This document shows positions 4,040-60,311 of a stretch of 64,000 nt of DNA, in pieces (position 1 is the stretch's first letter; each line of letters begins with the position of its first letter). The position numbers and the translations under genes are program-made. Below the pieces are notes generated by a model, which was not told the origin of the DNA, did no database searches, and saw nothing but the letters and a program-made list of their open reading frames with translations. Source of the stretch: Octopus sinensis (lineage: Eukaryota); the NCBI RefSeq assembly GCF_006345805.1, contig NW_021833647.1, forward strand, positions 10,932 through 74,931, in the 5' to 3' direction.

Positions 4040-4140
4040 TTAACAAACTCACGTAGAGCGTGGACCTCGGCCTCGGCGCCTCCTCGGATACCAACTTCGA
4101 GCTGTGTTGGTACGAAGTACGGTAGAAATGCCCCAAAACC
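4040..4140 (-). mobile_element. CRE-clade reverse transcriptase fragment
   Basis: Minus strand ...FLPYFVPTQLEVGIRGGAEAEVHALREFV, matching QLGVAVKNGCEGAAHAMR of the 11823 element. Confidence 0.7.
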
Positions 4141-4169
4141 TGCCTTGGAAACCTGCCTTTAAATCCTTT

Positions 4170-4280
4170 TCAAAGGAAATGGCCTCTTTGTTTGTTTGCA
4201 GTTTCACTTTGCTTCTCTTTAATAACTTTGGGTACCATAACTTTGGATCTTTTTCGAGCAGTTTGTTTAGTTCTTGCCAT
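4170..4280 (-). other. 36-codon ORF starting with the histone H3 N-terminal tail
   Basis: Translates as MARTKQTARKRSKVMVPKVIKEKQSETANKQRGHFL*; the first 10 residues equal canonical H3; no histone fold follows. Confidence 0.6.
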
Positions 4281-4619
4281 TAGATTTGTGTAAAACTCAA
4301 ACCCCAGCCCCAACTACCCAGCTGTCAAAACCTGCATCTAAAGACCCGAACCACCACTCGCCCTTCGGCGGGGAAACCCTGTGCATCTGTTCTTACTCTG
4401 TCGCTAACCTTATATAAAAGCCTACAGTGCTTGACGATATCTGAAGTGACCACCTATCAATGGAGATGAAAATTCACACTAGTATTGTTAAACAAAAACG
4501 CATATCCACACACTACAGTCTCTCAAGGATAACTGGCCATACTATAGGAGCTTCATGCAAGGTAACGGTCGTCCTGTTGGCTACGATGAGTAAGTTAAGC
4601 AATTTCATGCTTCACTATC

Positions 4620-5541: not shown

Positions 5542-7269
5542 CAGTCCGACCCCAAAATGGGCAGACCCCAGGGGTGGGGCACCCTGGATTTGGGGCACCC
5601 CCGCAATTTGGGGCACTTTATTCCAAAAGTACATTTTGGCAGAAAAAATAAAAATCGATAAAAAATTATGGAATTTTTGGGGCACCATAAAATCATTTAT
5701 AAGGAATTAAAAATAAAATAAAATTATAATAAATTAATTTTTTTTGTTTTATTTTCAATTATATTTTTATTGTTGTGGTTATGGATTACGAAACTAAATT
5801 GAAGATTGCTAAAGAAATTTTGAAGAAAATTTATCTGAGAGGCAACTAATGAAAAAGTACAACACAAGTAAAGGAACAATATCAAGAATAAAACGAATAT
5901 TGTACCTTTCTTGCAACACGGCAATACTATTTCTGAGGAATATGACACATTTAAAGCCGATAAAGATAAATTTGATGATCAAGTCTTTGAAATATTTCAA
6001 AGACTACGCGTAGATAAAATTCCGATTTCAGGCCCTATTTTGAAAAAAATTGCCTTAGTTACAGCTTCAAAAATGGATTTACTTCTTTAAAGCTTCCAAT
6101 GGGTGGCTTGATAGATTTAAATTGCGGCATGAACTTCAATTCAAGTCAATATGTGGTGAAAAAGCTTCATGTGATTTATCTTATGTGAAAAATTATTTTG
6201 AAAAATTGACCAGAAAGTATTAAATATGGACCTGAGAATATATTTAATTGTGATGAAACTGCGCTTTTTATAAAAAGAACTCCTCAAAAATCATTTGTTG
6301 AACAAGGCGAACCGTGTTTTGGTTATAAACAAGGGAAGAAAGACTCACTGTTCTTCTATGCTGCAGTTTAATCGGGGAAAAACTTAATCCATTGATTATT
6401 GGAAAATATAAAAACCTCGGTGTCTAAAAAATTTTGATGTTCAAGATTTTGGGTTATTGTATTCATCTTCTCAAAATGCATGGATGACTGGAAAGACTTT
6501 TATGAGTTGGCTTACACTTATAAATGAATCGTTTTGCAAAAACAACAGAAAAATATTATTAATACTTGACAATGCGGGATGCCATAAAACTGCCGAATGT
6601 TCGAACATCGAATTTTTATTTTTGCCGAAAAATACAACGCCCTATTTACAACCTTTGGATATGGGAATAATCAAGATTTTTAAAGATTATTATTCCTCTT
6701 TCTTAATGGAATTTTTTATGTTTTCAAGATTTCGAAAACGATTTTACACATTCTATTGGTAAATTAAATTTGCGTCAGGTTATGATGCTAATTTCAGAAG
6801 GATGGGAGAAAATAGATGCTAAAAGTATTGTTAATTGTTGGAAGAAAAATCGACAGGAACCGTGATTCTTATGCAACAAAAAACTGTCTAACAGATGAAC
6901 ATTTAGATCAAGTTGTTAACGAAACAATTGATGGAGAATGCGAAGACATGAACAATAATGTTTATGATACATATTCAGAAACCGAAAATAGTGAAAATGT
7001 CGTAGCAAAAACAAAAGATCTGCTTAACAATTTAGAAGAAAAAATTTCTAATGTTGCACCAAGTATGCTCCGAGATTTTTTTGATTTTCGGCTGAAATTG
7101 ACGAACAATATCAGACAAAACTCTACAAATAAAAAGAAAATAACTGAATATTTTAGTAAAAATGTTTTTTGATGTTTAATGGTTTAATTTTTAAAAAAAT
7201 AACACCCCCTGTTTTTTGGGGCACCCCCGCATTTTGGGGCACTTGGTGCCCCATTTGGGGGTCGGACTG
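5542..7269 (+). mobile_element. pogo/Tigger DNA transposon with frameshifted transposase (about 5781-7172)
   Basis: TIRs CAGTCCGACCCC..AAATGGG at both ends with TA TSDs; CENP-B-type HTH (ASNGWLDRFK), FNCDET, LDNAGCH and LQPLDMGII motifs. Confidence 0.93.
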
Positions 7270-10360: not shown

Positions 10361-11027
10361 AAAAGAATTTGTTTGTTGCTCCTTGGCTCTTAATTGTTCC
10401 AAAGATATAACCGATACAGAACAACTAGTTGTTTTTGTTAGAGGGGTTTTACCGAATTTTACTATTTATGAAGAATTTCTGTCATTATCGTCACTCCACC
10501 TCTCTGCAAAAGGAATAGACATATTTCAAGCACTTTGTCGAGCTCTTGAAGAAGCAAGTCTTGATCCTTCGAAATTGATTTCTGTGTTTACAGATTTCTG
10601 TGTCTACAAATGGATATAGAACTGGCGGCATTGTTCAAAAATGCGCCCATTATTAATTTTTACGAATTACTTCCTCGTGACAAATTTAAAAATATAACAC
10701 AAAATGCATATATGAACATCTCAATGTTTGGATCTACATATCTATGCGAATCAATATTTAGTAAAATGATTCGCATAAAAAATAAATATCGTAACAAACT
10801 CACCGATAATCACTTGAGTCAGCTTTTACGAACTTCTTCGAGTTTACTTATTCCGGATTTCAAAAACTTAATAAATAAATAATATTTTCTTTTTAGTTAC
10901 AACGCCTTTTTTAGATACTTTCTTTTTAGTTACGGCTTGGAAAATATAAAAATATTTTTTGTGCGGCCCGCGAAGCTAATCTTAATTATCGATTTGGCCC
11001 TTGAGCTAAAAAGGTTGAGAACCCCTG
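10360..11027 (+). mobile_element. Internally deleted hAT (GTF2IRD2/Spin-like) fragment with right TIR
   Basis: SKDITDTEQLVVFVRGV and FGSTYLCESIFSKM..KNKYRNKLTD motifs; terminus GGTTGAGAACCCCTG ending at 11027. Confidence 0.85.
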
Positions 11028-11029
11028 CT

Positions 11030-11797
11030 CTAACAGAAGATGAGGAGCTTTGTCAACTTCGATATAACCGCACATTAAAAATTAAATTTACTGAAATGAC
11101 GACAGATAAGTTCTGGATTTTGATAAAAGATTCTTATCCTTCAATTTTTAAAAAAGCAATAAAAATATTGCTTCAGTTCTCAACATCATATAAGTGTGAA
11201 CAAGCTTTCTCTTGTCTCGTCGACATTAAATCAAAAAACAGAAACAGGTTGTTATCAGTTGAAGATGACCTCCGCGTATGTTTGTCGCAAATTCGTCCCC
11301 GTCTGGAAATTTGTTTGCACATAAACAAGCACTTTGGTAATTTTTTGTTAAGTTTCTTGGATATATTAATTAAAAAGAAGGTGTCGGTGCAGGCGCAGTC
11401 CCAAACAAGGCACTTCCCGTTGGTGTACGGGAAAATTAAAAAATTAAAATATTCAGAGCTCAAGGACAGGTTCATAGTGCAACCGATTATTGTGGAGTCA
11501 TCTGGAGTCTTCGGTCAGGAATCAATCTCTTTCATTAGGAAACTTGGATCCCTGATCTCGGTTCAGACGAAAGATAGAAGGGAGACCGAATGGCTGTTTC
11601 AACGCCTTTCAACAACCGTTGTCAGGGGTAATAGCCACGCTATCCTTTCTGCTCTTAAGCAACCTTAATTAACTTATATTTTCTTTTGTTAATACCATTA
11701 ATTAAAAAAACATTTCTGATGAATATTGATTTTTAAGTGCCAGGAGAAAAAAACCTAGTTTTAGGTACCGCGAGCACAAAAAGGTTGAGAAACGCTG
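11030..11797 (+). mobile_element. Buster/Charlie hAT 3' fragment carrying an inserted CRE 3' fragment (about 11380-11710)
   Basis: FWI..YP...KILLQFSTSYKCEQAFS dimerisation motif; terminus GGTTGAGAAACGCTG; internal KYSEL..VESSGVFG..WLFQRLS..RGN CRE tail with a short A-rich end. Confidence 0.75.
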
Positions 11798-11822
11798 GGT
11801 TAGACTATAAAAAAATAATTAT

Positions 11823-14704
11823 ATGAACAAACAAGAAAAATGCTTTGACTGTCAGAGAGATGTGCACCTATCTTGTGCCGGCTTAACAAAGATGTCATCT
11901 GCAGCCCTCGCAATCTGGAAATGTCCAGCGTGTCTCAGTGCTTGTCCCCTAAAGCCAGCACCCCTTCAAAATCCCCCACTCCCGTCTCGTCCGGTTGTTT
12001 GTGACATCCCCTTCGAAGATTTGTTATCCTCTGTTGCCGGTCTGCGCCGCGCACGGAAGATATGCATAAAAATTCCGAAAGCAGCTCGGATTGCCGTCGC
12101 CGACTCGCTCACGAAGACCATTGTAAACGCCCTCGATTCTGACCAGCCTGCTGATTGGCTGAAATTATTTTGCTTTGGTCCCATGGCAATTGGCACACCC
12201 TACAGGGAACCTAATTCGAAGCAGCGCGGTTCACTGACTTCGCAATTAAAGGAAAATTTGACTCTCTTCGACAAAAATCCATTCACGGTCCTTCCTACTC
12301 CCCCCGCTGAATTTGAGACCCCTTTAACGAATAAACCTGAACGCACAAACCTTCGTAATAAAGTCCACGCCAAGCTTATGGAAAACGATGTTAAAGCTGC
12401 TGTTCGCCTTGTGGCTTCCGATGACGTTGTTCTACCTCCGTCGGAAGAGCTTCTCGAGGCACTCAAACTTAAACATCCGGCTGCCCCCACCGACCTCCGT
12501 GCTTTGCCAGTCCTCTCTGGAACCCCTACACATTCCTTTACGCCCTCGGAGATCTTAAGCTGCATCGCGAGTTTCCCCCTCAGCAGCAGTGGTGGCGTGG
12601 ACGGTCTTCGTCCTGGCCACCTACGTGACCTGACGTCCCCGGTTACAGGCGAGGCAAGAACCCGCCTGGTGAAGGCAATTACTGCTCTTTGCAATCGGTT
12701 CTTCTCCGGCGACCTTATCCCGTATGCACGTGACTTATTCTTCTCTGCCAATCTCACTGCCTTAAGGAAGACCGATGGTGGAGTTCGCCCCATCGCTGTC
12801 GGAAATGTCTTCAGGAGGCTGGCTGCTAAGCTTGCTTGCAGGCTCGTCTCTACTGATCTTGGCGCATTTTTCGGACCTGTTCAACTTGGAGTTGCTGTCA
12901 AGAATGGATGTGAAGGCGCCGCCCACGCAATGAGATGTTATATCGCCAATGCGTCAGCCGATTCTCGCCATGACAGGGCACTTCTCAAACTTGACATCAA
13001 GAACGCATTTAACTGCATCCGCCGGGATCACTTCCTGTCAGTTTGCTTCGACCAGTTCCCCGTTTTGTATCCCCTGGCGCTATTGTCATATGGAAGACCT
13101 AGCTCTCTAGTATTCGGTTCGGATATTATTCCTTCAAGTACGGGAGTTCAACAGGGCGATCCACTAGGTCCCCTTCTCTTTGCCTTGGAATAAATGGAAT
13201 AGCTCGGTCGGTTTCTTCCGAACTGAATATTTGGTATCTGGACGATGCCACTATTGGCGGCTCCCCAGAGACGATTTTAAGAGACGCTTTGTCGTTGGCA
13301 CCTGCACTTCTGAGGATTGGATTGGAGATTAACCCCACCAAATCCGAATTAGTCGGTGTCAACATTCCTGATAAACGCCTTGACGACCTTTCATCGTCCC
13401 TCCGCACTGGTCTTGGCCAAGTGCGCGCGACTGACGTAAATGATCTCCGGATCCTTGGATCCCCCATCCTGCCGACTGCTATTAAGACTGATCTTCTTAC
13501 CAAACATTCCACGTTAACTATTTTGCTGGACCGCCTCACGTTTTTGGACAGCCACGTCGGCCTGTTTCTTGCGAAAAACTTTTTCGCCCTGCCTAAATTA
13601 CTCTACTCCCTCAGAAGTGCACCTTGTTACCTACATGAGGACATTCTCACTGATCTCGGCGACTCCCTTCGTTCGAAGATCGAATCAATATGCAATGTCG
13701 AGTTCGACTCTTTGGGGTGGAGTCAAGCTTCACTCCCCGTACGCCACGGAGGCCTTGGAATTCGGTGTCCGAATGATGTTGCACTGCCTGCCTACCTGTC
13801 GTCACTTTCTTCATGCCAGAAACTCATGGGCACGGTTCTTCCAACCGATTTTGAACATTACGTGCCCTCTGAGTTATCATCGGCGGTCGTAAAGTGGCAC
13901 TCGCTAGGACTGGAAATCCCAGAGGATCAGCATAAGCAATTTGTTTGGGACGAAGTCCGCCTACAATCCCGAATCCAATCTTTACGTACATCTTTCGACC
14001 AACACCGCTTGGCCTGCTTTGAGACGGCATGTCGCCCTCACAGCGGAGCCTGGCTAAATGCCACTCCACTGCCGAGCATTGGGAACCTTCTGGACTGCGA
14101 GTCCGTACGCACTGGAATCTGTTTACGTCTCGGTCTTCGCCTATGCGAGCCACATGTCTGCCGCTGTGGCGCGAAAATCTGTCGCTTTGGATTGCACGCT
14201 CTATCGTGTAGACGCAGTGCTGGCCGCATCCCGCGTCACGCCGCTCTTAACGACCTTATCAGGAGAGCCCTGGAAGTCGCCGGAATCCCCTCCCTGCTTG
14301 AACCCACTGGGATCGATCGGGGGGACGGAAAAAGGCCTGACGGGATAACTGTGTTTCCTTTCAACAGGGGGAAGCCTCTCACCTGGGATGCCACGTGTGT
14401 GGACTCTTTCTCGCCTCAGAACCTGCTGATGTCGGCCTCGGCTCCTGGATCTATTGTCACAACCGCGGAATGCAAAAAGATGCGGAAGTACTCCTCACTT
14501 ACGGAGAAGTTCCAATTCCTTCCATTCGCGGTTGAGACTTCCGGTTCCTTGGGCAGTAAGGCAATCAGCTTCGTTCAGGAGATCGGATCCCGCATGTCTG
14601 CCATCACAGGCGACGCCCGCGAATCGAGATGGTTTTTCGAGCGGATATCCCTTGCGATAGTACGCTCTAATTCTTTCTCGATCGCGTCGGCTTCCCGCAC
14701 TTGA
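11823..14704 (+). CDS. Near-complete CRE-clade retrotransposon ORF: PHD-like finger, RT, zinc knuckle, restriction-like endonuclease; one frameshift near 13187
   Basis: GVRPIAVG, QLGVAV..GCE, KLDIKNAFN, GVQQGDPLGPLLF, WYLDD (in the shifted frame), CRCG..HALSC, RHAALND, GKRPDG, WDATC; restoring one G in TTGGAATAAAT joins the 456-aa and 471-aa ORFs. Confidence 0.92.
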
Positions 14705-15896: not shown

Positions 15897-17028
15897 ATGC
15901 AGTTCGTGCGTCTACTGTCGAGTGCGATAACTCGTTACAACGACCGAAAGGACGACGATTGGGTAGACCGAATGAGCTATAGGTATGGCACTAACATCAT
16001 CCTCTTTTTCGCAATTGCCATGATGAGCAGGAACTTCACAGGGTCGCATCTCGTTTGCTGGCATCCGGCCATGTTTACATGTTTGTCTTGTCATAAAATT
16101 TTAAGATTCTTACACTTCATTTGGGGATTCTTACTGCTAGACTAAGGGCACATACTACGTGGCCCTTGATCAAAAACTGCCCTCATCAGATGAAATCAAG
16201 AAAAAAAGAATGTAAATTACAATTTAAAATGTAAATTGATGCTAATCCGACCGTTGTCTACTGGAGGTTAATCTGCCTGGAATAGTCAATAAATGCTCGA
16301 TTGCTCATAAAATTGAACGAATCTCAGAATAGGAAAAAATAGCGAGCAAAATCGCGTACCAAATCGACCATTATTTGCGACGGAGAGACAACTGGGATGG
16401 GACATCGAACAGAGTCGTGTCTCTTATAAAAATGCTGATGTGGTCTGGGGGACGGAAACACGGAAACTATTTGTCTTTTGCATACTGCATCACCAAAACA
16501 CTTTTCCTCTTCAATGCGTTTGGTCAATTTTTTCTGCTGAACAGATTTTTGGGCTTTCAGTTTCACATGTACGGTTTCTACATTCTGAACGAGTACATTC
16601 ACGGAAAAGAAATAAACGAGTCCTCTTTCTTCCCGCGGGTAACCTACTGCGATATCCCCGAACGGACCATCAAACAGACACACATCTACACAGTCCAATG
16701 CGTGCTTCAACAAAATCTATTCTCAGAAAAAATATTCATAATTATTTGGTATATGCTCCTAATTGTCGGAGTTGCGACTTTGATCTCGTACGTCAAGTGG
16801 CTTCTTTATTTCTCGATTCCCCGTCTACGGGACGACTACGTTAGTCAGTACATTCAGGATATTGCTCCAACTGAGAACGATCAGTTCACCAAATTCATTA
16901 ACAAATACCTCAAAAACGACGGATTCTTCATTTGTCGACTTATCGCACTCAACAAAAACTGCATGATGCTTGACACTGTTGTCAACATTCTCTGGCAAGA
17001 CTTTAAAAACAAGAACCTAAATAATTAA
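15897..17028 (+). pseudogene. Innexin (invertebrate gap-junction protein), disrupted
   Basis: DDDWVDRMSYRY, LVCWHP, SYC*TKGTYYV, GNYLSFAY, FFPRVTYCD, TVQCVLQQNLFSEKIFIIIWY, YLKNDGFF; 25-nt intron at 16081-16105; in-frame TAG at 16138 and 16330; YYQW/TM2 region absent. Confidence 0.88.
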
Positions 17029-17956: not shown

Positions 17957-18330
17957 TTATTTATTGTAATATAATAAGAAGTAATGCTTGATATTGTCTG
18001 GATAGAAGTTTCTATCTTTTTTTAAAATATTTTTCAGCAGTTTAATAGCTTTTTCAACGGATGCAGAGGATGCCTGACAGCGTGAAAGTAAAAAATAATC
18101 TCGTTGGCTAATTTTCGGTTCAGTCATCTCAATAATAGGTTTAAATCCGTTTTCCTCCATTCTTTTATTCATATAATTTTTAATATTTGCCTTATCATCA
18201 TAAAAATGTAGTCCTTCTATGTCATAATATTCCCGATTGATTGAATAGTCGCAACATTCCGAAACTTTGAGAATATCTATTATTTGTGAATAATTGCATA
18301 TGATCTCCGTTAATTTCATCTCAATATCGG
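17957..18330 (-). mobile_element. hAT-like transposase C-terminal fragment
   Basis: CQASSASVEKAIKLLKNILKKDRNF resembles the hAT dimerisation S..VERxFS motif. Confidence 0.6.
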
Positions 18331-18484
18331 GATAATTGAATATGCATAGTTAATAACTATTTGTCATTATTCTATTTATTTTTATGGGAAAAAAATATCG
18401 GGATTATTTACATCATAGGTAGGGCAATTTTTTTTTAACCTAAAAACTTCGATTTTTTAACCTAAAAATTTTAACTTTTTAACC

Positions 18485-20797
18485 CAGTGATTCTTAACGG
18501 GGGCGCTGGCGCCCCCCTGGGGGCGCTGGAACATATTAGGGGGGCGCTGGAATTTTAATTTTTTTTAATTATTATAAATATTTTATTAGTTTTTGTAAAT
18601 CATTATCACGTGCTTTTCTATTAATTCTAAATTCAAATTGTCTTGTGTGTACGTAAAAAAATTATTCACTGATAATATTTATAAATATTTGTTAATTGTA
18701 TTTAATATTTTAGAACTTTTTAATAAATATTTTAATTATATTTTATAGATGTCTGATAAAAAAGTAAAACGACGTATATATTCGGATGAATACCTAAAGT
18801 TTGGAGTGATACCCTACGACCATAACAATTCACTTCCATGTGTCTTATGTGTAAAAAGGTCTTTACAAATGAAGGAATGAAGCCTTCAAGAATGCTAAAT
18901 CATCTTAAGATTTGTCATCCTGACAAACTTGATGCGGATATCAATTATTTTTCTAATCTGAAATATAATTATGAAAATCGTCTTATGATTAATCAACTAT
19001 TTACAAAAAATTCGAAGATGCTTGAAAAAGGCCTATTAGCATCATACAAAATATCGCAATTGATAGCGAAATCAGGAAAACCTCATACTATTGGAGAGTC
19101 ATTAATATTACCAGCTATCAAAGAAGTGTTAAATTCAATGGTTGATTGTGATTCTGAACAAATAATTTCATCAATTCCTTTGAGTAATAGTTCTGTTTCT
19201 TCCAGAATTGATGAAATGGCATTTGATATCGAAGAAACCCTATGTGCATTTTTAAGAACAACAAAATTTTCAATTCAGATTGATGAATCGACATTCAACG
19301 ATAGTGTTGCACTTTTATTAGTTTACGTACGTTATATTAATCAAAATGATGTAATTCAAGAAGAATTTTTATTTTCTGAACACCTTGAACTCGATACAAG
19401 AGGATTAACAATTTTCAAAACTGTTGAACAATATTTTTTGAAACATGAAATACCCCTTAGCAATATTTTTGCTTGTTCAACAGATGGGGCACCTGCGATG
19501 GTTGGAGTTCATCGTGGGTTTTTGGCATATATGAAGGAAAAAGTACCGAATATTTTTACAATCCATTGCGTCATTCACAGACAGCATTTAGCTGCGAAAA
19601 ATTTAAGTGAGAGGCTGAATGAATCACTAAATGTTGTCATATGTGCAATAAATCGTATTAAAATGCACCCATTGAATTCGAGAATATTTCGACATATTGT
19701 GAACAAAACGATGAGCATTATGAACGACTTCTTTTGCATACCCATGTTAGATGGCTTTCAAAAGGAAACTGTTTGTGTCGATTTTTTGAATTGTATGATT
19801 CAATCTTAGAATTTTGTCAGTTACATGAGCAGAGAATTTTTAGGTAATTATTCCTTAATCATTTTAGTAAGTTGATTTTATTGAAAGCTGATATAGCTTA
19901 TCTAGCTGATATTTTTTATAAAATCAACCAAGTAAATATTAGCTTGCAAGGAAACAATATCAATTTAATAAATGTAAAAGGAATTATTATGCCTTTTATT
20001 GAAAAATTACAACTTTATGAAAACAATATTAAGAAAAAGATTTTTATTAATTTTCCAAATCTACAAAAATTTGGGGTTATTTTTTGTAATAATATTTATT
20101 AGGTCGAAAAATTAACGGATTCTGACTGTGAATGCTTTTGCTTGCATCTAAAAATGTTAAAAGATGACATGAAAATCCGCTTTGAAGATTTAGAAAATTT
20201 AAAATTTTTTGATTGGTATATAAATCCATTTGAAACTGAAAACGTTAATTTATCTCAAGAAATAACAGAAAATTTATTAAATCTGAAATATGACTTTGAA
20301 GCTAAAGTCATTTTCAACAAATATGGATATCAACAATTCTGGGTTACTCATAGAAAAAATATCCTTTATTGTGGAATGAAATTGAAACACTTATAATAGC
20401 ATTTCCTTCAACATATCTAGTTGAAAGAGGATTTAGTGCAGTCTCTAATATTTTGACCAAAAAAAGAAATAAATTACAAATTGTGAATAGAGGAGATTTG
20501 AGACTAAGTCTGTCGACTATTGAAGCTGACATAAAACGATTGACAAATTCCCATCAAGCACAAGGCAGTCACTAAAATTTTTTTATATAAAAAAGTTTGG
20601 TTTGTGAATACCCTTTTTATTCTAAAAAAATAATAAGTAATATTCGAAAATATTAAAATGAAACATTGGCGAAAAAATTGCCAAATAAATCTATAATTGA
20701 AAAAAAATAAATTAAATAATAGGGGGGCGCTGAAATTTTGAAGCTTCGAAATTGTGTCAAAAGGGGGCGCTGACTTAAAAAAGGTTAAGAACCACTG
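18485..20797 (+). mobile_element. Full-length Buster/Charlie hAT element
   Basis: TIRs CAGTGATTCTTAAC / GTTAAGAACCACTG; 8-bp TSD TTTTAACC on both sides; GGGGGCGCTG subterminal repeats. Confidence 0.95.
18749..20575 (+). CDS. Buster-type (ZBED5/SCAND3-like) transposase with two tiny introns and a few single-base frameshifts
   Basis: YSDEYLKFG, CLMC..MKPSRM..H, KPHTIGE, IDEST, TDGAPAM, HCVIHRQHL, RWLSKG, FPSTYLVERGFS, HQAQGSH*; introns at 19844-19867 and 20076-20102. Confidence 0.85.
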
Positions 20798-22539
20798 TTT
20801 TAACCTAAAAATAACCAATTTTTAACCTATAAAACAAAAATTTTAACCTAACAAATTTTAACTTAAGAATCATTTATTATACAAACATATAACATAATTC
20901 TCTATATTTTCAATATTAAAATTTCTGTTATCCCTCATAAAGTTTTAAATTTGAGAGAAGCATCGTTCTATGGAAGAGATGAAGGCTGACACTTAAAAGC
21001 ATACAATATTTTTCAGGAGAAATTGATGATTTGTCATTCTATAATTTGACATAAATCATTTTTTTGTAATCGTTCATTCGAATATTTTTCAATTATATCT
21101 GATTCGTCGTCAAATTTTAAATTCTTTAGCTCATTGTAAGCTAACTCTATTGAGGAGTGAGAACTTTCAAATTTGCACAATAATTCTGCTATTATTAAAC
21201 TAGTTTTACCTGGAATTGTCGAATAATTTCTAACAATAGAACTTAAGCTTTTTACTAGAGATTCATCTCTTAGGCTATTTTTTGCAGCCTGAACAATGAT
21301 TCCATCATCAGGAATTGTTTTGAAAATGTTTATCACATGTATTAAATTTTTGCATAATAAAATGCAGCAGTTAGCCAAGTACCCCATCTAGTTAAAACTA
21401 CATGAGGTGGAATTCCAATTTCATTAAATAGTCGTTTTCTCTTGTTATTTTTTGTTATTGCCGCTTGAATTGATGCAATAAGAGAATCAATTTCAGGATA
21501 AATAGTCCTGATTTTCATTGAACAATTATGCATCAGATGAGCAACACAAGTTACGTGAAATAACCTTGGATATAAAAGCTTAAGAACTTTTCCAGCTATA
21601 ATTATATGTTAAATTAAAACCTGCTAGCATATATTTAGCGGAATCTGTTATTAGGAGAAGGAAATTTTGTCTTTCAATTAAAACGCATTTAATCGTATCG
21701 TCAACAATTTGAATAATTGTTTCTTTGGTAGAAGTTTTATCAATTTTTACGAAAGAAATCAAATAAATTTTATCGGGATTTTTAAGTATCCCCATTAAAA
21801 CTGCAACAAATTTTTGGCTACGAATAGTGACCTCGTCACTTATGGCGAATACAAGTTGATTTCTAAAAAATTATATTCATAAACCTAAACTTTTCTTGAA
21901 ATAATACAATATATTCAGTTTTCAATTGTTTAACCGCACATTCTTGCTTTGTATTGGGAAGGAAGAGGCAAAGAAGTATTCTTGAATAAATTCTTTAGAG
22001 GAGGCATAGTCAATTTATGCAAGGGTATATCGCATTGAATAAATGCTTTAGTGACTTGCATTGACCAGTCATCATTGGGTAACTCGTCCAAACAAAGCTG
22101 ATAGAAATTATTCTCTAAAAATTATATTAATTTGTAAAAACTTAATAAATTTGAGTGCTTCTTCGATTCTCGGTGAGAATTCACAAAATGCTTTTTCTCA
22201 CACCTGACTGTGCATAAGCAAAGTTGACATTGCAACTCGCCATTCTCTCGTAATAAAAACTCCAGCGGATATTCAATAACAATTTTTTTTGCCTTAAAAT
22301 ACATTGTTTTTGCAGTTCTTGGCATACTAAACACCCACGCGCTATTTTAAATAAAGTTAAAATTTTTAACTTTATAAAAAAAATTTTTTTAACTTTTTAA
22401 CTTTATTTTTTTCTTTAATAAGTAACTATTTCATTTAAAAAATACTTTATTTTTACTTTTAAGCCAAAATACACATTTTCATATATTTTAACTTTTTTAA
22501 CTTAAATTGCCCTAATCATAGGTTTTCACGAGAAATTTC

Positions 22540-23075
22540 TCGCGGCGCAAATGCTAATAAAAAATAATCTCGCGGCACATAATCAAAAATCAAAACATAA
22601 TTATAAATTCCAAATTCAAAATTTATTATTTTTACATAATTTTTCTATGTCTGGCTCAATATTTGATAAGGCCAGTCGCATTTCTAAATCTAAATCCAGT
22701 AGATTTTCTCGCTTATTTGTTTTAATGTTTTGTAATGCAGAAAATCCCTTTTCACACAAATAGTAAAGAAACCTGAATTTAATCATATAATAAAACAATA
22801 TACAAGTCCATTAAGTCTTCCAGACATAGATGGTGCCCCATATGTGCATACACCAACACAATTTTTAAAGGAAATATTATGTTGATTAAAATAATCAAAT
22901 ATCAAATTGTACATATCAATTGCACGAGTAGTAGTAACTAATGCCTTGCAGAAAAGAAATTGTTCAATAATAGTTTCTGACTTTTCAGTACGAATATAAA
23001 TAAGCAACTGTGCAATTTCTGCTACGTCAGTTGATTCGTAAATTTGCAATGAATATAAATTTCTTTTTAAGCCAT
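22540..23075 (-). mobile_element. Internally deleted Buster-type hAT fragment
   Basis: ESTDVAEIAQLL, CVGVCTYGAPSM and YLCEKGFSAL..KTNKRE fused together. Confidence 0.8.
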
Positions 23076-23199
23076 GAATTATTCACGTAAAGAAAAATAG
23101 AGAAGAGAAGTTAACTAATTTAGATGAGTTGCCGAACGGATGGACAGGCAATTTCCACGTAATATCGCGAACGACGTAATTTCCACGTAATTTAGGTGA

Positions 23200-24603: not shown

Positions 24604-25623
24604 ATGGAAGGTCAACTGAAATGTACCAAATGTAAAGAAGTAATTTATACAAAAAACCCACATTTGCGTCTTATGGACTCATTTTATCACACTAACTGTC
24701 TTCAGTGTTCTGTGTGTTCTCAAGTACTCACAGATCTTTGTTACGTGAGGGACGAGATTTACTGTTTTAACGACTATACAATGTTTTATTAAAAACTTAG
24801 TTTGTAGGAATTTTAAGTTTTGTCCGTTGTGTAACGTCCAAATTGAACTAAATACATTGGTGTATACCATCAAGTCACATATGTATCATGTTGAATGCCT
24901 CAAGTGTCGGTGTTGTAATAAAGAACTCAAAACTGGGGACTTCTTTTCCTATGCTGATAAATCCACACTTTACTGCATGGACTATTATCACAAAAATATA
25001 TGTTTGGTAATTGAGCTATTTTTAGTAAAAACTGAAAACACTGCGGAATCGAAAAGAAAAATCAAAGTCTCCTAAATCTTGTTCGGGAGCGAATGGGAGT
25101 CCTGAAAAGCTGAATCCATTAGTGAGGAAGTTCAAACCAACCATGAAGCCAACAATAACTTCAAAAAATGCAAACAACGTGGACGGAGGACATCAATCAA
25201 ACCACACCAAATTGGGCTTCTTACAGAATTGTACGAAAGTGAAAGAAAGCCATCGCGTCATACATTGGAAGAAATGACCAAATTGACTGGACTACCAATT
25301 CGCGTGATCCAAGTCAGGATGGGGGTCTCTAGTGTTAGGTCTGGTTTCAAAACAGGAGGTCCAAGGAACGGAGAAACAACCCGAGCAACTCTAGCCTCCT
25401 ACCTTCCAATCCACCTCCCAGTAACACAGAATTTGGGGTCTTCAAACATCAGTTTAATCAAAGGCCACAAATCTTCCAGAATAACAGATCTGGAAATAAT
25501 TTTTTTTCGTCATTTGTGACAGATGATCAACATTATGGGCATTATCGAAACGAATATTACCCAGAAAGTATGTTGAGGAAGCCAATAAATCCAATGCTGT
25601 TTCCTCCCTCAAGGCATTTTTAA
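24604..25623 (+). CDS. Lhx1/5: LIM-homeobox transcription factor, Lhx1/5 (Lim1) type
   Basis: Two LIM domains (CTKC..YHTNCLQCSVC..YCFND; CPLC..YHVECLKCRCC..YCMD) joined by a 25-nt intron at 24783-24807; homeodomain RGRRTSIKPHQ..KPSRH..TGLPIRVIQ|VWFQNRRSKERR with a 26-nt intron at 25313-25338; linker splicing, start and stop are uncertain. Confidence 0.88.
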
Positions 25624-35012: not shown

Positions 35013-36596
35013 TAGTTTTCCACACATTTTTGCCACCTTTACAAGCAATTTCGCCACTTTTTCACAAAATTTCGTGTAAAGTAGATTATCGGCTTTTCGT
35101 TTCAAGCAATTCTGCCACTTTTTCAAGCAATTTCGTGCATAAGAAGATTATCGGTTTATTGTTTCAAGCAATTTCGTGCATAAGAAGATTATCGGTTTAT
35201 TGTTTCAAGCAAATTCGCTACTTTTCCAAGCAATTCCGTCACTTTTTCAAGCAATTTCGCCAAATTCTTAGAAAATTATTTTTTAGAAATATACTCGTCT
35301 TACTAATATAGATTTTTTGTTTAAAGCTCTATGAATGAATTAATATTTATTCAAAAAGGAAAGCCGAAAAAGAGAGCAAAATTAATGAGACAAAAGAATC
35401 ATTAAGTTTAATCAATTTCTAATGGATCAGTTCTTTTTGCAATGATTTTGCTACATAATGTAACATATTTCGAAAGAATCCATTACAATCATTTTCTGTA
35501 ATTGATTCAAAGCCTTCGTTAATTAAAATAAACAATTCATTTTCTTTTTTTGCATTTCCTCTGATTACATGATTCTTCCATTTTGAAAAAAACATTTTCA
35601 ATTGGATTTAAAAATGGTGAATATGGTGGTAGATATAAAATTTCCAAATTTAATTCACTTATTTTTGATTTTAACAGTTTTAACTGGGGATTCAATTCCA
35701 TTGTCAATACACGCAGATTTTAAGTTAACAATGTAATTCACAAAAAATTCTCCATTTATTGGTCTATTGTGTAATTCTTTCATGATCATTCCATATTTAT
35801 TCATGGAAGCAATAACGGAAAAATTTCTGCTTCTTACAGAGGCGGTGACTAAATATGGAATTGAAGAGTATTTCTTGCTTCTGGTCAGTAGTTATTATTT
35901 TAAGTGTGTAGTGAAACTCTTTTAAACATCGATGAACAGTGCTTTCGCTGATGGCTAAATTTTGTTCTGAAAAAAATTTATTTTGTAAATCACGTAATGT
36001 TATCGTAGGGTGACAATCGACCCATACTCTAATTTGATTTTTTTGATTTTCATTCAGCTTTGATGATCTATTTCCACCTGTTGGTTTTTTTATATATTCT
36101 TCCCTCATTATGAAATGTGTTAACTATTGAAACTATTGTACTCCTTGGAAGTTTAGTATTTTTGAGATTTCCGTATTGCTTAGTCCTGAATTTGAGTGAG
36201 TTATTATCAATCTTCTAGTATCATTGTTAATTTTGTTTCTACTCATGACAAAAATTTAGTGTTTAATACGTTTATAAATGTATTTAATTGACATAAAAAA
36301 AGGTAAATTTATTTTTAAAAAATTTGATGAAATTGCTTGGAAAAGTAGCGAATTTGCTTAAAACAATAAACCGATAATCCTCTTATGCACGAAATTGCTT
36401 GAAAAAGTGGCAGAATTGCTTGAAACGAAAAGCCGATAATCTACTTTACACTAAATTGCTTGAAAAAGTGGCGAAATTGCTTGTAAAAGTGGCAGAATTG
36501 CTTGAAACGAAAAGCCGATAATCTACTTTACACGAAATTGCTTGAAAAAGTGGCGAAATTGCTTGCAAAAGTGGCGAAAAAGTGTGGAAAACCCTA
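35013..36596 (-). mobile_element. Tc1/IS630-family element with long repeat-built TIRs; transposase deleted or frameshifted
   Basis: TTTTCCACAC..TTTTGCCAC / GTGGCGAAAAAGTGTGGAAAA ends with about 230-270 bp inverted arms; HTH (GGNRSSKL..PTITLRDL) and YLPPYSPFLNPIE motif. Confidence 0.88.
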
Positions 36597-43217: not shown

Positions 43218-43800
43218 CAGGGTTTCTTAACAGGGGGTACATGTCCCTAGGGGGTACGCGGAACATTTTTCAATTTGTTATGATTAAGATGATTTTAATA
43301 ATTTAATATATTTTGATAGCATTTCTTTTCGTTTTTCCTTGTTTCCAATAATATTCCCTGGACTAAAGTTGGGTCGATATGCACCGTGGACTAATCTGCC
43401 ATGCTCGGACATCGATCTGGTTTTATTGCACTGATTAAGGATGTCGCACCTCATATTATCGCAAACCATTGTGCAATACATAATTATGCTCTTGCTGTAA
43501 AGACGATGCCTCAAGAATAGAAAATTGTTCTTGATTGACCGTAAAGTCAGTTAATTTGATTCGTGCGAGGGCGACTAATCATAGCCTTTTTAAATTATTA
43601 TGCGAAGAAATGGGAACAGAACATTCAGTACTAATTTTCCACAATGAAGTTCGGTGGTTGTCAAGAGGAAGGGTGCTTAAACTGGTTGCCGAACTAATTG
43701 GTGCAGTCACTACTTTTTTGCAAAAAATAAATAATATAGAACTCGCCAATATGTTCGCAGATTATGCCTTCAAACAAAAGTTATTTTATCTTATCCAACA
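43218..43800 (+). mobile_element. Buster-type hAT 5' end with deleted transposase
   Basis: CAGGGTTTCTTAAC terminus; ANHCAIH and EVRWLSRG motifs. Confidence 0.8.
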
Positions 43801-49900: not shown

Positions 49901-52900
49901 GTGACTTGACTCTGTCGTGATAAAATGGGAGACATACAATCCTTTCCTCCAACGCTGCGTGATAAAATGAATAATATTTTATTAGAGCTGGCATCAAGTC
50001 TAATCTGAGGAACAAAAGGGTTAAGCCATCCTCATGTGCAATTCTGTACACAAGACATATCAAATTGGATAAATTGGGACTTGTCATATCAATCAGATCA
50101 ATCTACAGCACATAAACAAGCAAGAGAACTGTAATAATAAAAAACTTGACAAGTCCATTTTCCTGATTAAGTTCATTACTGGAATTAGTATAAAGAAGGC
50201 AACCTCTGATTGTAAAACTGTGAGCGTTGTCTTGGAATAAGAAATAAAATAATATTCGATATAAATTCAACAAATGTCTAGAGGGTGAAAAGAGAAATCA
50301 ACTTGTCGAATATGTCCAACATTGCAATAGACCGAATGTCTGGCGATCCACCTCGGAACAGATACAAAATAATCGAAAAACGACTAAAAATCTGCAAACA
50401 ACCCCACCTCGGCTATACGTGGATTGGTAGAATATGCATTTTGCACTTTTAGACAAAAATGAAGCAAATAATGTTCAGCAGTCGAATGTGTCAAAATGTC
50501 AAAAAGAAATGAAACAAAGACTGGGCTGACACAGGAGGAGTAGTTTGTTTGATTCTGCAATGGAGGAGAAAAACAAATTTTCTCAACAAAACTAGCAGAT
50601 TTAAATAAATGAACTGACAGAAAGTAATCGTGTTCGAATAACAATACTTCTCTATCCAGCACTTTATTATCATTCCAAACGAACTAGAAAGGTATGAAAA
50701 GTTCAACCTCCACCAAATCAGAATATTGTCTATTTTCTGTTGGAGGATCCGTTAGAACAAGAGCATCAACGGATTGACCGACTTTCTTATAGAAAAGCAT
50801 ATAAGCGTTGTTGCCCTAAGAGTGGAGGATTAAGCCAACTTTAATAGCGGAGCCTCCCATTCCCCCATAACACTCATTAGGAATGTCATTAGGGTTGAAA
50901 ATGGTCACTGTTGAGTCGTTGAATGAATACCACTGAAAGGGGTGAGTCAATTCTTTGATAAAGCAGTAGTAGTGGCCCGCTTCCGAATTCCCAGAATGAA
51001 CAGTAACCCCTATCAATTCAAATTGAATGTCTTCACACGTCCCTATCTGATCTGACAAATAAACAGAAAGCCCAACCCTCTAAAAGATTTGATTGCATGT
51101 ATTTGGACATGTCCAGAATGAGGGGGAAGGAGAAATGACTGTTAATCTTTTTTCGACTCATATTCGTCACGTCGAATGCATATCGCATCGTGTTTATACA
51201 CAAAATGTTTGGCAGTCGTTGGAAACAGGCTCTCTTCTGAGCTCGTACTTTTTTATCACACGGATCACACGTGTACATATTAGCGCCCTCCAACATGTCT
51301 ACTTGAGTAAACTTGTCCAGTGATTGCTAATTGTAGTAGATTATTATACATATAAGTTTTCGACATCCATGACCTGACATTCAATGTTATAAAACTCTTC
51401 ATGCCGAATACTCACGTGAGGACAGTCCTAAGCAAATAGAGTACTCGACACAACCAGCGATACGATCGAATTGGAAATGGTCCCGCAAAACATTTTCTTG
51501 ACACATTCGTTCTAATTTAGTTAATATCGACGTACCAGAGATGGGCACATGCATTCCATTTTTGTCAGGAGGTCGTTGAATATCTCAGTCATATCCTTCG
51601 GGTCGTACACATTCAGGGGCATATTCTCGTATATATAAGCCTTACATAAATTGACAATATTACAAGACTTTCTCCAACTCTCCTGCCAAATTTCCAATAA
51701 AACTGACCTCTAAAATTACAAACGTCCTCTGCAAATCTCGGAACAAAGCATAATATTTATTTACTGGCGCAACGGACGCCGCATAAATAGCATTTCTGAT
51801 GGCGGGAATCATAAACAAATGCTGCAACGTCGAGGCCAGATAACACGTCGACCCAGAATTATCAATTCCCGAATATGGGACTACTCTCCTTTGCTGTTGG
51901 TCAGAACATATCCCCCAAAGTGTCGAAGGACATGCTAAGCAGTGAGAGCTAACACGTAACCTGGATCATTATGAATTGACCTGAGTTTATCACACACTGT
52001 TGCAAAGAAATCGCCACTCTTAGGAATCTGCCAAGCCAGGAGAGTGAAGGCAAGCAGACGACTTGACCTACTTCTGCATTTTGGAACATTTTTGACGTCT
52101 TTTGTGGGAAAAGTAAAGACCAGTTCCATTAGTCTTGAAATAAATTCCTATTTTTCGTATTTAAAAAAGACCTTCGAGCTGAATCAATCTTCAAAATGGA
52201 GATGTTTAATTAATTTGCAAGCCAAACCGAGAAGATGGGCAAGTCGGGGATCTTCTTCAGCATAGACTGAAGCCGTAAAGTCCATCTCCATGAGTGTATT
52301 AACCACTTTAAAAGAAAGATCCGAATATTCCAGTAATACATCCATAGCCTATAATAAATATAGTGAATGATGCCTTCAATTCCGGAATAAGTTTGTCAAA
52401 AAAGAAAAAATAGCTTGTACAGGAGCTTGTGCATCTCTCCGCGGAAGACATGTCAGTATTCTCGATAGTATACAACTGTGTTCAATAATAATAAGTTATA
52501 CAATTTCCGGCCGGTCTTCCAAAACAATTTCCCATGAATTGACCAAACTGTCGAAAATAGCAGTCAGCCAACAGTTATTCTTTTTCCTTGCATCCTCCAA
52601 CGCCAAATAATATAAATAAAACGCCCAGTCGACGCTGTCGTAATTCTACCAATTCACCCAACCCTCAACCTTCACCAAAACTTGTACAAATCGCTCAAAT
52701 GAAGGATCATTGGGGAAAATAGTGACGACTGGATGATACCGTTCACCTGAAGTGAGTACCATTACCATCATTTTTAGGGCCAGGGAAGAGACGGAAGCAC
52801 AGTGTTCCCACTCATCAGTCCTAGTGATAATCCACATCGATGTACTTCTTTTTCAAAAGATAATAGACAATTTCGGCCATTCTCTGAATGAACTGTTCCC

Positions 52901-57442: not shown

Positions 57443-60311
57443 ATGCCAGGAAGTGACCTCAAAGTCAACGACCGAATATCCGAAGTTTCAGTAGATTATG
57501 TCGGACGAGGTAATACGGCGGCAGTCACATTGAATGATCTGCAAAGTCGAATCCAATTTATAGATGACAGTTGGCCACGATTTAATCATTTTTTACATTT
57601 TGATCAGTTCTCGTTGTGCCACTTGCAGGGTCTGTCGCCCAGGCAGCTCATTTCGGCAGGGTAAGAGGCGGAGGTTTTCATATTTTGTACAAAATCAGAG
57701 TTTTGGAGGATATTTTATAATCAACGGAATTGAGCGGTGTGTTCGAATTCTGTCCCTCGCCGAAACTATGTTTTGTGGAAATACTATTTTCAGGCAATGG
57801 CTCTCAAACGGAGGAACTGGAAACAACGTGGAGACCACTACACGGGGTCACCATGCGGTGTGTGGGACTCAACGAAATGCCAGCAGTTGCCTTTCCCTGA
57901 CATTCCCAGCACATGACGTTGCACTATCTGAAGAACTGTTGCACGACACTGTCGATTATGTGTGGAAGAAAGCTGTATTTGATTCCCTTTATGATAGTCG
58001 TGAAGGTGATGTGTTGGTAGGGGTTGGACGAATTGGGGGATGCTCAGTTGTTCAGAGGGATAATGGGTGGAGGACAGTTCTTTCGTGGCGAATTGTGCCA
58101 CAATCATGATGAGGAGACTACACGTGGATAAATTGTACACGAAGGCACAAATCAGGGACTATTTGGGAGGGCTTTTTCGTGATCAGGGAAGTTTTCCCGA
58201 TTGGTATTCGAACGAGGAAATAACGGAGAGAATATTGAGGGAATCCGTGTGTGTTCATCTCCGAACGGACACTGAGAAGGTGAACTGTATTTCCATCGGC
58301 CTCCTCAAGGGGGAGTGTGTGGAGGAAAATCCTGACTCGATTGCCAACCAAGAAGTGATTCTGTCTGGAAGTATGTTTTCGATCGTCCTCCAAGTCTGAC
58401 ATTCAAGTCAGCTGATAGGAAAGACTGAAATTGTGGCTTCAGGGGATTATAAAGACAATTGTCTATTCGTATGAGAAGACGGGGGATGAAGACATCAAGA
58501 AATTGCTCAACTCGGCAATCAGTCGTTCCTCCAACCCAATCTCGACCATAAACTATCTGCTCTCTACTGTGAACATTAGCGTATTCAGTGCCCACGAAAT
58601 TCAGCAGACCTTTGGATTGAGTGTGATTGATGACAGAATCAATTCCTACATTGAAATGAAGACCACTCAGATCAGGAAGATGAGGCCGGAGACTTGGGAT
58701 TGTTTCACTTGCCTACTTTAGGCTTCCTTTGTTGTGTTCAGACTCCTGACGGGCCGTCCTGTGGGTTGGTTAACCATTTGACTACTCTGGCTAATGTATG
58801 GCCGCGTGTGTATTGATAGATTGTGAATGACTACACTGATCATCACAACTTGGGGCGTGTTCTGTGTTCATATAGAGTGAATCCTACTGACGGTCCTCTG
58901 GAGGTGTGGAGGCGTATTGTGTGCTCCTTGATGGGGGAGTGGTGGGATATATTGACTGTCCCAATGTGCATAGTTTTAATAACAACTTGAGGATGTTAAA
59001 TACACAAAATAAAGTTGTTTTCTTTATGACATTCAGATTCCCAAACACTCAGAAATAGTTTTTGTTGAGAAGCCCAAATCGAGGGAGTTGTACTCGAACA
59101 GTCAATTCCCCGTAGTGTACATATTCACTTCCTCCTGTTGATTTGTTCGACCTGTCTTCAACGTGTTGTGTCGGGCGGAGGAGTTGGTTGGTTCATTCGA
59201 GCAAGTTTACCTCCAAATTCTGTTAAAATCCAAAACCGTTTGTTGTCATCGTTTAATTTCACTAAAGGAAGATCTTCTCGAGAGTGGAGAATTGGATGAC
59301 AGTTCTGTTCTCAGTCTGAATGCTTCCTTGACTCCGTTCTCTGAATTCAATCCAAGTCCCCGAAATATCCACCAATGCACGTTGTCTATGTTTTATAATG
59401 AGTTGCACGTGTGAAACAGACGAGGGCATATCCCTGTCAGAATATTGAGGACTGAGATCAAACAATAAAATGGTGTCAACTGCACTGTGAAATCTCGGTG
59501 GGTGACACATTTGCTAAGATTAGGGCCTCCCGTGGTTGGAGACAAGGTTGCGAGTAGACATTCCCAGAAAGGAGTGGTGGGCTGCTGATTATGAACCCTG
59601 AGGAAGGATATGCCCTTTTCAGAGTCGGGCATGGTTCCCGATATGCTTTTCAATCCTCAGGGAATTCCGTCTAGGATGACAATGGGGAATCTGGTTGAAC
59701 TCATTGCGGGCAAGGCTGTCAATGGTCTTTTCCAGGAGGCGAGCACGTTCAAATACGCAGGACGGGAAAACACGGTGGACTGTTTTGGAAGGCTGTTAGA
59801 ACAGGGTTGTATATTTGTGAGAGTAATATCCGTGTTTAACTACTATGGTTGGGAAAAGTTGTACAGTGGGGTTAGTTGTGAAATGGAGGCACAGATATTC
59901 CAGGACTTCGTGTATTACCAACGACTGCGGCATATGGTCATGGATAAGATACAGGTCGTCACTTTTAGTTTAGTCAAGGTTCGTTCAACTGGGACAGTCG
60001 ACGCTCTGACGAGACAGCTCATCAAAGGGAGACGGCGACATGGCGGGATCAGGTTCGGAGAGATGGAACGGGATGCTCTGTTGGCGCACGGGACTGCCTT
60101 CACACTGCAGGACAGATTATTTACTTATTCAGATCGGACTCCTGTATTGCATTTGTCTTATTCTAGATGGAATTCTGTTCTTCATGTGGCTCCCTTCTGT
60201 CGACCATACGCGAGAAGGGGAGTGTTTTGGAGAATGGATTCGAGGTGGAGGAGGAGTGTTGGACGTGTTTTCATGTGTGTCTTGGGTTACAAGGTAACAA
60301 TCAGCACGTGA
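57443..60311 (+). pseudogene. POLR1B: RNA polymerase I second-largest subunit (RPA2), internally deleted and containing stops
   Basis: [90 protein letters not shown]; the region between SPRN..QC and GDK..SRH is far too short. Confidence 0.85.

What the first reader, a model, noticed from the sequence alone, without database searches (positions are those of the whole stretch)
19844..20102. Buster hAT transposase interrupted by stop-containing 24- and 27-nt introns
Seen: removing GTAATTATTCCTTAATCATTTTAG (19844-19867) and GTTATTTTTTGTAATAATATTTATTAG (20076-20102) removes in-frame stops and gives continuous transposase (..QRIFSKLILLKADIAYLAD.., ..LQKFGVEKLTDSD..). The element keeps intact TIRs and TSD. 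Known: introns this short are below the size most animal spliceosomes handle. Inference: the element has acquired host-type micro-introns, which could restrict it to this host and allow splicing control of transposase (compare P-element regulation).
Basis: partly seen in the sequence, partly recalled or inferred. Interest (0 to 1): 0.75.

Follow-up and report, generated by a model that had tools for sequence, protein, structure and literature searches.

The report
Parasite transposon that gained tiny introns
A young, multi-copy jumping gene has its transposase gene interrupted by 24- and 27-base segments that are very likely spliced out as introns; the DNA likely belongs to a dicyemid, a tiny octopus parasite for which introns this small are normal, and several unrelated jumping-gene families in the same DNA likely gained such introns independently.

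Summary
Both segments are at the stated places, are GT–AG bounded and carry in-frame stops. They are present in 14 of 14 near-full-length copies. In three copies their removal gives an unbroken 592-aa Buster transposase.

Segment 1 fills an exact 8-residue gap against outside homologs. Segment 2 lies in a variable loop, so alignment cannot decide it. Exons downstream of the stops evolved under purifying selection (pN/pS 0.29–0.38), which argues for splicing. No RNA was seen.

The size is not special. The contig is likely dicyemid DNA inside a 2.7-Gb host assembly, and a neighbouring host gene has introns of median 24 nt, as published for dicyemids.

Not found in print: at least four separate Buster lineages in this DNA carry their own AT-rich micro-introns at 10 positions, mostly at AG|GT-like sites, while close outside relatives are intronless. 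This scan has reported the same phenomenon on other pieces of this genome. P-element-like control and host restriction are unsupported.

The parts
18485..20797 (+). Buster-family hAT DNA transposon (2313 bp here; 2318 bp majority of copies)
18477..18484 (+). left target-site duplication TTTTAACC (nnnTAnnn)
20798..20805 (+). right target-site duplication TTTTAACC
18485..18498 (+). left 14-bp TIR; subterminal GGGGCGCTG motifs follow at 18500, 18520, 18541
20784..20797 (-). right 14-bp TIR; subterminal GGGGCGCTG motifs at 20724, 20764
18749..19843 (+). transposase exon 1 (BED finger and first two acidic residues D179, D246 by recalled motif); 1-nt deletions after 18837 and 19696 in this copy
19844..19867 (+). 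predicted intron 1, 24 nt, phase 2, in-frame TAA; exon end and intron end share a 6-nt direct repeat
19868..20075 (+). transposase exon 2; pN/pS 0.29 for changes shared by older copies
20076..20102 (+). predicted intron 2, 27 nt, phase 0; the acceptor TAG is the in-frame stop (CAG or CAA, no stop there, in the 6 older copies shown)
20103..20575 (+). transposase exon 3 (E543 by recalled motif); 1-nt deletion after 20353 in this copy; pN/pS 0.38
18691..18713 (+). candidate 23-nt GT-AG segment in the 5' leader; untested
18420..22514 (-). second hAT-like element (DUF659-type transposase, 8-bp TSD ATCATAGG) into whose end the Buster inserted; predicted micro-introns at 22115-22141, 21863-21884, 21596-21620 and (weaker) 21186-21209
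15897..17028 (+). host innexin, closest named non-self hit Dicyema koshidai innexin1; predicted 25-nt intron 16081-16105
24783..25338 (+). part of a host LIM-homeobox gene with GT-AG segments of 25 nt (24783-24807) and 26 nt (25313-25338), read by eye
50278..51960 (-). catalytic region of a host ubiquitin hydrolase gene with ten predicted 23-27-nt introns

Best explanation
The two segments sit in all near-full-length copies of a recently spreading Buster transposon and are very likely spliceosomal introns, which the likely dicyemid host would remove like its own 23-27-nt introns to make a 592-residue transposase; they were likely gained after an intronless ancestor entered this lineage. Shown: fixed in the copies; GT-AG ends; removal restores the frame; absent from a close outside relative's DNA; purifying selection downstream of the stops; parallel introns at other positions in other Buster lineages. 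Inferred: dicyemid host (about 90%); splicing (about 90% for segment 1, 80% for segment 2); gain inside the dicyemid lineage (about 80%). Most likely route (about 55%): a short AT-rich filler lands at an AG|GT-like site, for example by staggered-break repair that duplicates a few bases. A spliceosome needing little more than GT, AG and about 25 nt removes it at once, so the insertion is nearly harmless and can fix by drift. A cut-and-paste element never passes through mRNA, so it would keep each gain.
For: Both segments are present in 14 of 14 near-full-length copies; 3 of 14 give 592 aa once spliced. Between anchors around segment 1, 76 of 91 homologs have 33 residues, as the spliced form does; none has the 41 of the unspliced form; the spliced form scores higher against 91 of 91. 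Metagenome element L137 has the same TIR motif and an 8-bp TSD, and no intron call. Changes shared by independent older copies give pN/pS 0.39, 0.29 and 0.38 in exons 1, 2 and 3, against 0.88, 0.65 and 1.26 for private changes; exons 2+3 Fisher p = 2.4e-4. Host gene: 12 of 15 intron calls are 23-27 nt, median 24; score 5211 against 4138-4450 for 9 control boundary pairs. The innexin is 52% identical to Dicyema koshidai innexin1, against 35-38% for the other three non-self hits. Buster families B-E carry 24-36-nt GT-AG segments at 8 further positions, several not multiples of three; 0 of 18 Buster loci on chromosome-scale contigs have an intron call. One clade for the five intron-bearing families is rejected, p-AU 4.5e-5. 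B and C (48% identical) share one position with different intron sequences. Junction repeats total 38 nt over 13 introns against a null mean of 5.9; exon ends in AG 6 of 13 (null 0.6); next exon starts GT 6 of 13 (null 0.5). AT fraction is 0.85 in 15 transposon introns against 0.64 in 13 host introns, p = 4e-5, as reported for new Daphnia introns (PMC4202315, section 34).
Against: No transcript was seen. Segment 2 lies in a loop of variable length: 33-46 residues in homologs, 38 spliced, 47 unspliced. The nearest relatives P0003 and L137 have about 43 (counted by eye), so alignment does not show a clean insertion. In 6 older copies segment 2 ends without the stop codon and could have been coding. 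Segment 1 lacks a GT or AG end in 5 of 19 spanning matches, some of which are the same locus twice. The host assignment rests on one protein plus intron size. Most outside homologs are proteins whose gene structure I could not see; only L137 and the chromosome-scale copies were checked as DNA. The AG|GT bias could come from selection for splicing rather than from the insertion event: host exons also end in G in 7 of 13 (transposon versus host p = 0.096). Buster families G and H and a Tc1-like family on the same contigs have no convincing intron, so gain is not universal.
Confidence: 0.8

Rival explanations
1. The segments are not spliced; the element is a dead gene with fixed insertions, moved in trans by an intronless Buster of the same genome.
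For: No RNA seen. Families G and H with open frames exist on the same contigs. Family C has a similar terminal motif.
Against: Purifying selection downstream of both stops. Three intact spliced frames. Frame-shifting 25-, 26- and 29-nt analogues in families B and C with conserved downstream exons.
Confidence: 0.06
2. Segment 2 arose by intronisation: part of a coding loop came to be spliced, and the later CAG-to-TAG change made splicing obligatory.
For: The nearest relatives have a loop of about 43 residues, between the spliced (38) and unspliced (47) forms. Older copies read through segment 2 without that stop.
Against: AT fraction 0.89 against 0.71 for the coding region. It looks like the other transposon introns, several of which cannot be coding.
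Confidence: 0.25
3. The introns are kept because they help the element: they mark the transcript as self, or raise its expression, in a host that represses intronless transcripts.
For: Repeated fixation in at least four lineages. In human cells HUSH silences intronless mobile DNA and introns protect against it (PMC8770142, passages).
Against: Intronless families persist on the same contigs. No such pathway was tested here. The passages I saw concern human cells.
Confidence: 0.2
4. Regulated splicing as in the P element: retention of intron 1 yields a 366-residue product with the BED finger but no catalytic glutamate, which acts as a repressor in some cells.
For: The unspliced frame ends at codon 366. 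Precedent in P and Ac, as summarised in PMC4158355 (section 14).
Against: No isoform data. Stops in 3n introns are the norm here. Intron positions differ between families, from profile position 55 to 511, so no common truncated product exists.
Confidence: 0.1
5. The introns are copies of a mobile intron-making element (introner), or arrived ready-made with the transposon from another micro-intron host.
For: Short junction repeats resemble target duplications. Introners are reported in diverse eukaryotes (PMC9860276, search listing only).
Against: All 12 and 13 genome matches to the two sequences lie inside copies of this element. Close outside relatives lack them. Old, diverged introners would escape this test.
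Confidence: 0.1

Closest known systems
Buster family of hAT transposons (TcBuster; domesticated Buster1/ZBED5, Buster3/ZBED8; PMC3499496, PMC3606216, PMC3942097)
   Same: 2.3 kb, 14-bp TIRs, 8-bp TSD with central TA, about 590-aa BED-finger transposase; exon 1 is 51-62% identical to proteins labelled SCAND3-, ZBED5-, ZBED8- or FAM200-like.
   Different: Coding region split by two micro-introns. The outside relative L137 and 18 of 18 chromosome-scale Buster loci have no intron call.
Dicyemid (and myxobolid) ultra-short spliceosomal introns (PMC2222250, PMC6543705, PMC6736024, PMC13644364)
   Same: GT-AG, 24-27 nt, weak consensus; the same size as host introns in the window (median 24-25 nt).
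   Different: They lie in a mobile gene with intronless relatives, so they are likely gains. They are more AT-rich (0.85 versus 0.64), slightly longer (median 27 versus 25) and have longer junction repeats. The conserved-domain introns described in PMC2222250 sit at ancient positions.
Intron-containing transposases: BuT2 (five exons, Tip group, PMC3942097), CACTA and plant mariner-like elements, P and Ac (PMC4158355)
   Same: DNA transposases with spliceosomal introns; some gains reported in grass mariner-like elements and one CACTA clade.
   Different: BuT2 introns are 59-154 nt by the exon coordinates given; CACTA history is mostly loss. Here many family-specific micro-introns occur in one host. 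No regulated splicing is shown.
Newly gained Daphnia introns (PMC4202315)
   Same: AT-rich new introns with short direct repeats, attributed to staggered double-strand breaks.
   Different: Those are polymorphic in host genes. These are fixed in their families: one imprecise deletion and no precise loss was seen.

Membership tests
hAT superfamily, Buster family | short TIRs (10-25 bp) and 8-bp TSD | tested here: met
   14-bp TIRs; identical 8-bp TSD in 10 of 13 copies with both ends found, two of the ten being the same site; one mismatch in one more
hAT superfamily, Buster family | target consensus nnnTAnnn (PMC3499496 passage) | tested here: met
   central TA in 8 of 9 distinct perfect TSDs
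hAT superfamily, Buster family | transposase related to Buster proteins | tested here: met
   top hits carry SCAND3-, ZBED5-, ZBED8- and FAM200-like labels; ZBED5 and ZBED8 are Buster1 and Buster3 (PMC3606216 passages). No Ac or Tip outgroup was in my trees; no Pfam hit for the five window fragments and no PDB hit for exon 1
hAT superfamily, Buster family | BED finger and DDE triad | tested here: met
   C32/C35/H52/H57 and D179/D246/E543 in the spliced L002 product; the assignment is from recalled motifs
hAT superfamily, Buster family | catalytic activity | not testable with these tools
   recent mobility inferred from near-identical copies with different TSDs
Major spliceosomal introns of dicyemid size | GT-AG ends and 21-30 nt length | tested here: met
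Major spliceosomal introns of dicyemid size | removal restores a conserved, selected frame | tested here: met
   the alignment gap is exact for segment 1 only
Major spliceosomal introns of dicyemid size | absent from mature mRNA | not testable with these tools
Dicyemid host | host proteins closest to Dicyema; genome-wide micro-introns | tested here: met
   innexin and USP introns; one protein only, no rRNA or multi-gene test
P-element-type regulated intron | cell-type-specific retention giving a repressor | not testable with these tools
   no isoform data
Introner | similar intron sequences at many unrelated loci | tested here: not met
   12 of 12 and 13 of 13 matches lie inside copies of the element; only exact matches were listed although one mismatch was allowed

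The most novel reading that the evidence does not exclude
Dicyemids actively manufacture new micro-introns. Intronless DNA transposons that invade them repeatedly gain AT-rich 24-36-nt introns at AG|GT sites and thereby become dependent on a spliceosome that almost no other animal has, which would trap them in this lineage. The transposases form a dated, zero-intron-start record of how spliceosomal introns arise.
Probability: 0.4. Interest if true: 0.7.

Novelty: new variant of a known kind. Interest (0 to 1): 0.45.

Why it matters
How new spliceosomal introns arise is an open question, and clear gains are rare in animals. Transposases with intronless relatives fix the ancestral state, so these families offer at least 10 Buster positions (plus 3-4 in a neighbouring hAT) on which repair, intronisation and introner models can be compared. 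It also predicts a testable barrier to horizontal transfer. Practically, automated annotation misses these introns (public models P0127 and P0128 stop at segment 1 or skip exon 2), and parasite DNA in a host assembly is being labelled as host. The intron size itself is already published.

Tried and rejected
1. RNA: no RNA holder was listed for the element; this is no evidence either way, and no reads were laid.
2. Copy-specific insertion: rejected, 14 of 14 copies.
3. One search aligned copies without orienting them; only its TIR and TSD lines were used, and the alignment was redone.
4. Public models P0127 and P0128 are not independent support: one ends at the segment-1 stop, the other jumps to the segment-2 acceptor by a long intron.
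5. Shorter homologs ending near codon 366: no sign of a shared intron was read from their ends.
6. Host intron age: the chromosome-scale USP relative has a 3775-aa open frame, so positions could not be compared.
7. Weak calls dropped from the counts: L072 (13 nt), L073 (35 nt, an alternative to family G's stop-free 14-aa insert without GT-AG), L078 (30 nt, decayed copy), and three long calls across an insertion in L068. D@55 rests on L068 alone.
8. One family-C copy lacking most of an intron has an imprecise deletion, not a precise loss.
9. A source for the intron sequences inside the element: only weak AT-rich matches.
10. A Tc1-like family in the window shows no intron.
11. Literature: searches found no paper on transposon introns in dicyemids, judged from listings. 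Ogino 2010 and Arensburger 2011 were seen only as citations. Supplements of PMC13644364 and PMC6736024 were not opened and may bear on the claim.
12. One host intron was offset by one base and corrected; the junction counts do not change.

Full report
Observation. The two segments are in the sequence as stated. The element runs 18485-20797 with 14-bp TIRs and an 8-bp TSD TTTTAACC. A search of the own genome (G000, 2.72 Gb, 13,516 contigs) gave 77 matches from 40 of 86 candidates scored, all on small unplaced contigs. Among the 14 near-full-length copies both segments are always present. L002, L004 and L005 read 366 codons unspliced and 592 once both are removed. The window copy differs from the majority by five single-base deletions and no substitution. 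Three of these fall in the coding region, so it is frameshifted as assembled; read error is the likely cause (inferred).

Are they introns? Against 91 outside homologs of 560-625 aa (of 119 listed non-self hits), the stretch around segment 1 has 33 residues in 76, 31-34 in 90 and 128 in one duplicated record. The spliced form has 33 and the unspliced 41. Around segment 2 the homologs vary from 33 to 46 (spliced 38, unspliced 47), and the nearest relatives have about 43 by eye, so this test is inconclusive there. A spliced aligner with a flat 12-400-nt prior chose exactly these two segments, and GT-AG ranked 4th (tied) of 256 boundary pairs. I compared 22 older or diverged copies, in 17 groups, with L002. 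Changes shared by two or more groups have pN/pS 0.39, 0.29 and 0.38 in exons 1-3; private changes have 0.88, 0.65 and 1.26 (exons 2+3 p = 2.4e-4, exon 3 alone p = 4e-4). The frame beyond both stops was therefore under selection while the segments were present. In the six older copies shown, segment 2 ends in CAG or CAA rather than TAG, so its stop is recent. No transcript was seen.

Whose DNA? The adjacent innexin is 52% identical over 99% of its length to Dicyema koshidai innexin1, against 35-38% for the three other non-self hits. A 97%-identical protein is filed under an octopus name. In the window's ubiquitin hydrolase gene 12 of 15 intron calls are 23-27 nt, median 24, and the score of 5211 exceeds all 9 control boundary pairs (4138-4450). 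Dicyemid introns of this size are published: mean 26.2 nt from cDNA and genomic clones (PMC2222250, passages), median 27 (PMC6543705, passages), and a survey naming dicyemids and myxobolids as the only such animals (PMC13644364, abstract through discussion read). PMC6736024 (passages) gives a 67.5-Mb genome with 49% repeats. The contig is thus likely dicyemid DNA co-assembled with its cephalopod host, and the intron size is ordinary for it.

Were they gained? A full-length metagenome Buster, L137 (75% identical to P0003, which is the nearest neighbour of this element in the reduced tree), has the same terminal motif and no intron call. Of 42 further Buster loci in G000, none of the 18 on chromosome-scale contigs has an intron call. 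Families B, C, D and E on unplaced contigs carry 24-36-nt GT-AG segments at 8 more positions. These were present in all but one spanning match of the copies fetched (14 loci per family); the exception is an imprecise deletion. Their copies share contigs with this element and none was listed on chromosome-scale contigs. In trees of 104 and 32 proteins the five families fall in four places among outside proteins. One clade is rejected (p-AU 4.5e-5, quick tree, 32 of the 104 rows); long branches make the exact places unsure. B and C are sisters and share one position with different intron sequences, which shows long retention. Families G and H and a Tc1-like family lack convincing introns. The Buster is nested in a DUF659-type hAT that has three clear micro-introns (13-14 of 14 copies) and one weaker one; its homologs were seen only as proteins.

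How? The 15 transposon introns are more AT-rich (0.85 versus 0.64, p = 4e-5) and slightly longer (median 27 versus 25, p = 0.014) than 13 host introns, and have longer junction repeats (3.3 versus 1.4 nt, p = 0.003). Against random same-phase sites in their own coding sequence, 13 introns have 38 nt of junction repeat (null 5.9; 0 of 20,000 draws), end the exon in AG 6 times (null 0.6) and start the next exon with GT 6 times (null 0.5). The two sequences of the finding occur only inside copies of the element. I therefore favour AT-rich filler inserted at an AG|GT-like site with a few bases duplicated, as proposed for new Daphnia introns (PMC4202315, abstract and section 34), made harmless by a spliceosome with minimal signals and fixed by drift. 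Selection for splice-friendly sites could produce the same bias, and intronisation remains open for segment 2.

Function. Nothing here shows regulation. Retention of intron 1 would give 366 residues without the catalytic glutamate (motif recalled), but stops are usual in 3n introns of this DNA (7 of 9 transposon, 5 of 5 USP; stop-free ones are harder to detect), and positions differ between families. Host restriction is plausible: PMC4158355 (abstract and first part of the discussion) cites reduced Ac splicing in foreign hosts. It is untested, and an intronless Tc1-like family is equally confined to these contigs. Protection from silencing of intronless transcripts (PMC8770142, passages; human cells) is a possible but unsupported benefit.

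Novelty. The element is a new member of the Buster family, and its introns are of a known size class. Repeated gain of micro-introns by dicyemid transposases was not found in searches (listings only; other papers in those listings were not read). The scan's own notes report it on other pieces of this genome, one claiming a spliced junction in sequencing data; I did not check that and do not count it as support. Verdict: real, most likely spliced, ordinary in size, moderately interesting as one well-supported case of a wider intron-gain pattern. Interest 0.45.

Noticed in passing
window 18420-22514 (-): A 1.78-kb hAT-like element with a DUF659-type transposase, an 8-bp TSD and about 29 near-full-length copies at 96-100% identity. 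The Buster sits in its subterminal repeat. It has 3-4 micro-introns.
   Followed up: yes
window 18485-22514: Both nested elements differ from their families mainly by single-base deletions, so frameshift counts in this contig probably overstate decay.
   Followed up: partly
window 15897-17028: The innexin has two stops and two frameshift calls against Dicyema innexin1; a 97%-identical relative on another contig is filed under an octopus name.
   Followed up: partly
window 25313-25338: A 26-nt GT-AG segment splits the homeodomain of a LIM-homeobox gene between IQ and VWFQN, an intron position recalled as ancient.
   Followed up: partly
window 57500-60200: A degraded RNA polymerase second-subunit gene (Rpb2 domains 6 and 7) with 23-24-nt intron-like segments read by eye; perhaps a pseudogene.
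   Followed up: no
G000 C8750, C9729, C1794 (L170, L172, L174-L176) and C4 (L167): Several further USP34-like pieces lie on unplaced contigs, while the chromosome-scale relative is a single 3775-aa open frame without introns.
   Followed up: no
window 35050-36500 (-): A Tc1-like element with long terminal repeats and internal deletions; the family majority encodes about 330 aa with no intron.
   Followed up: partly
window 11811-14701 (+): A reverse-transcriptase element with frames of 460 and 533 aa and no evident micro-intron, as expected for an element copied through mRNA.
   Followed up: partly
L053, L054, L062, L065, L070, L074-L076: Buster family G has a stop-free 14-residue insert at profile position 373 without GT-AG ends.
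   Followed up: partly
window 17957-18349 (-), 22616-23082 (-), 43400-43790 (+), 10565-11665 (+), 6412-6759 (+): Further transposase fragments (hAT-like and DDE_1) in a densely nested transposon region.
   Followed up: no
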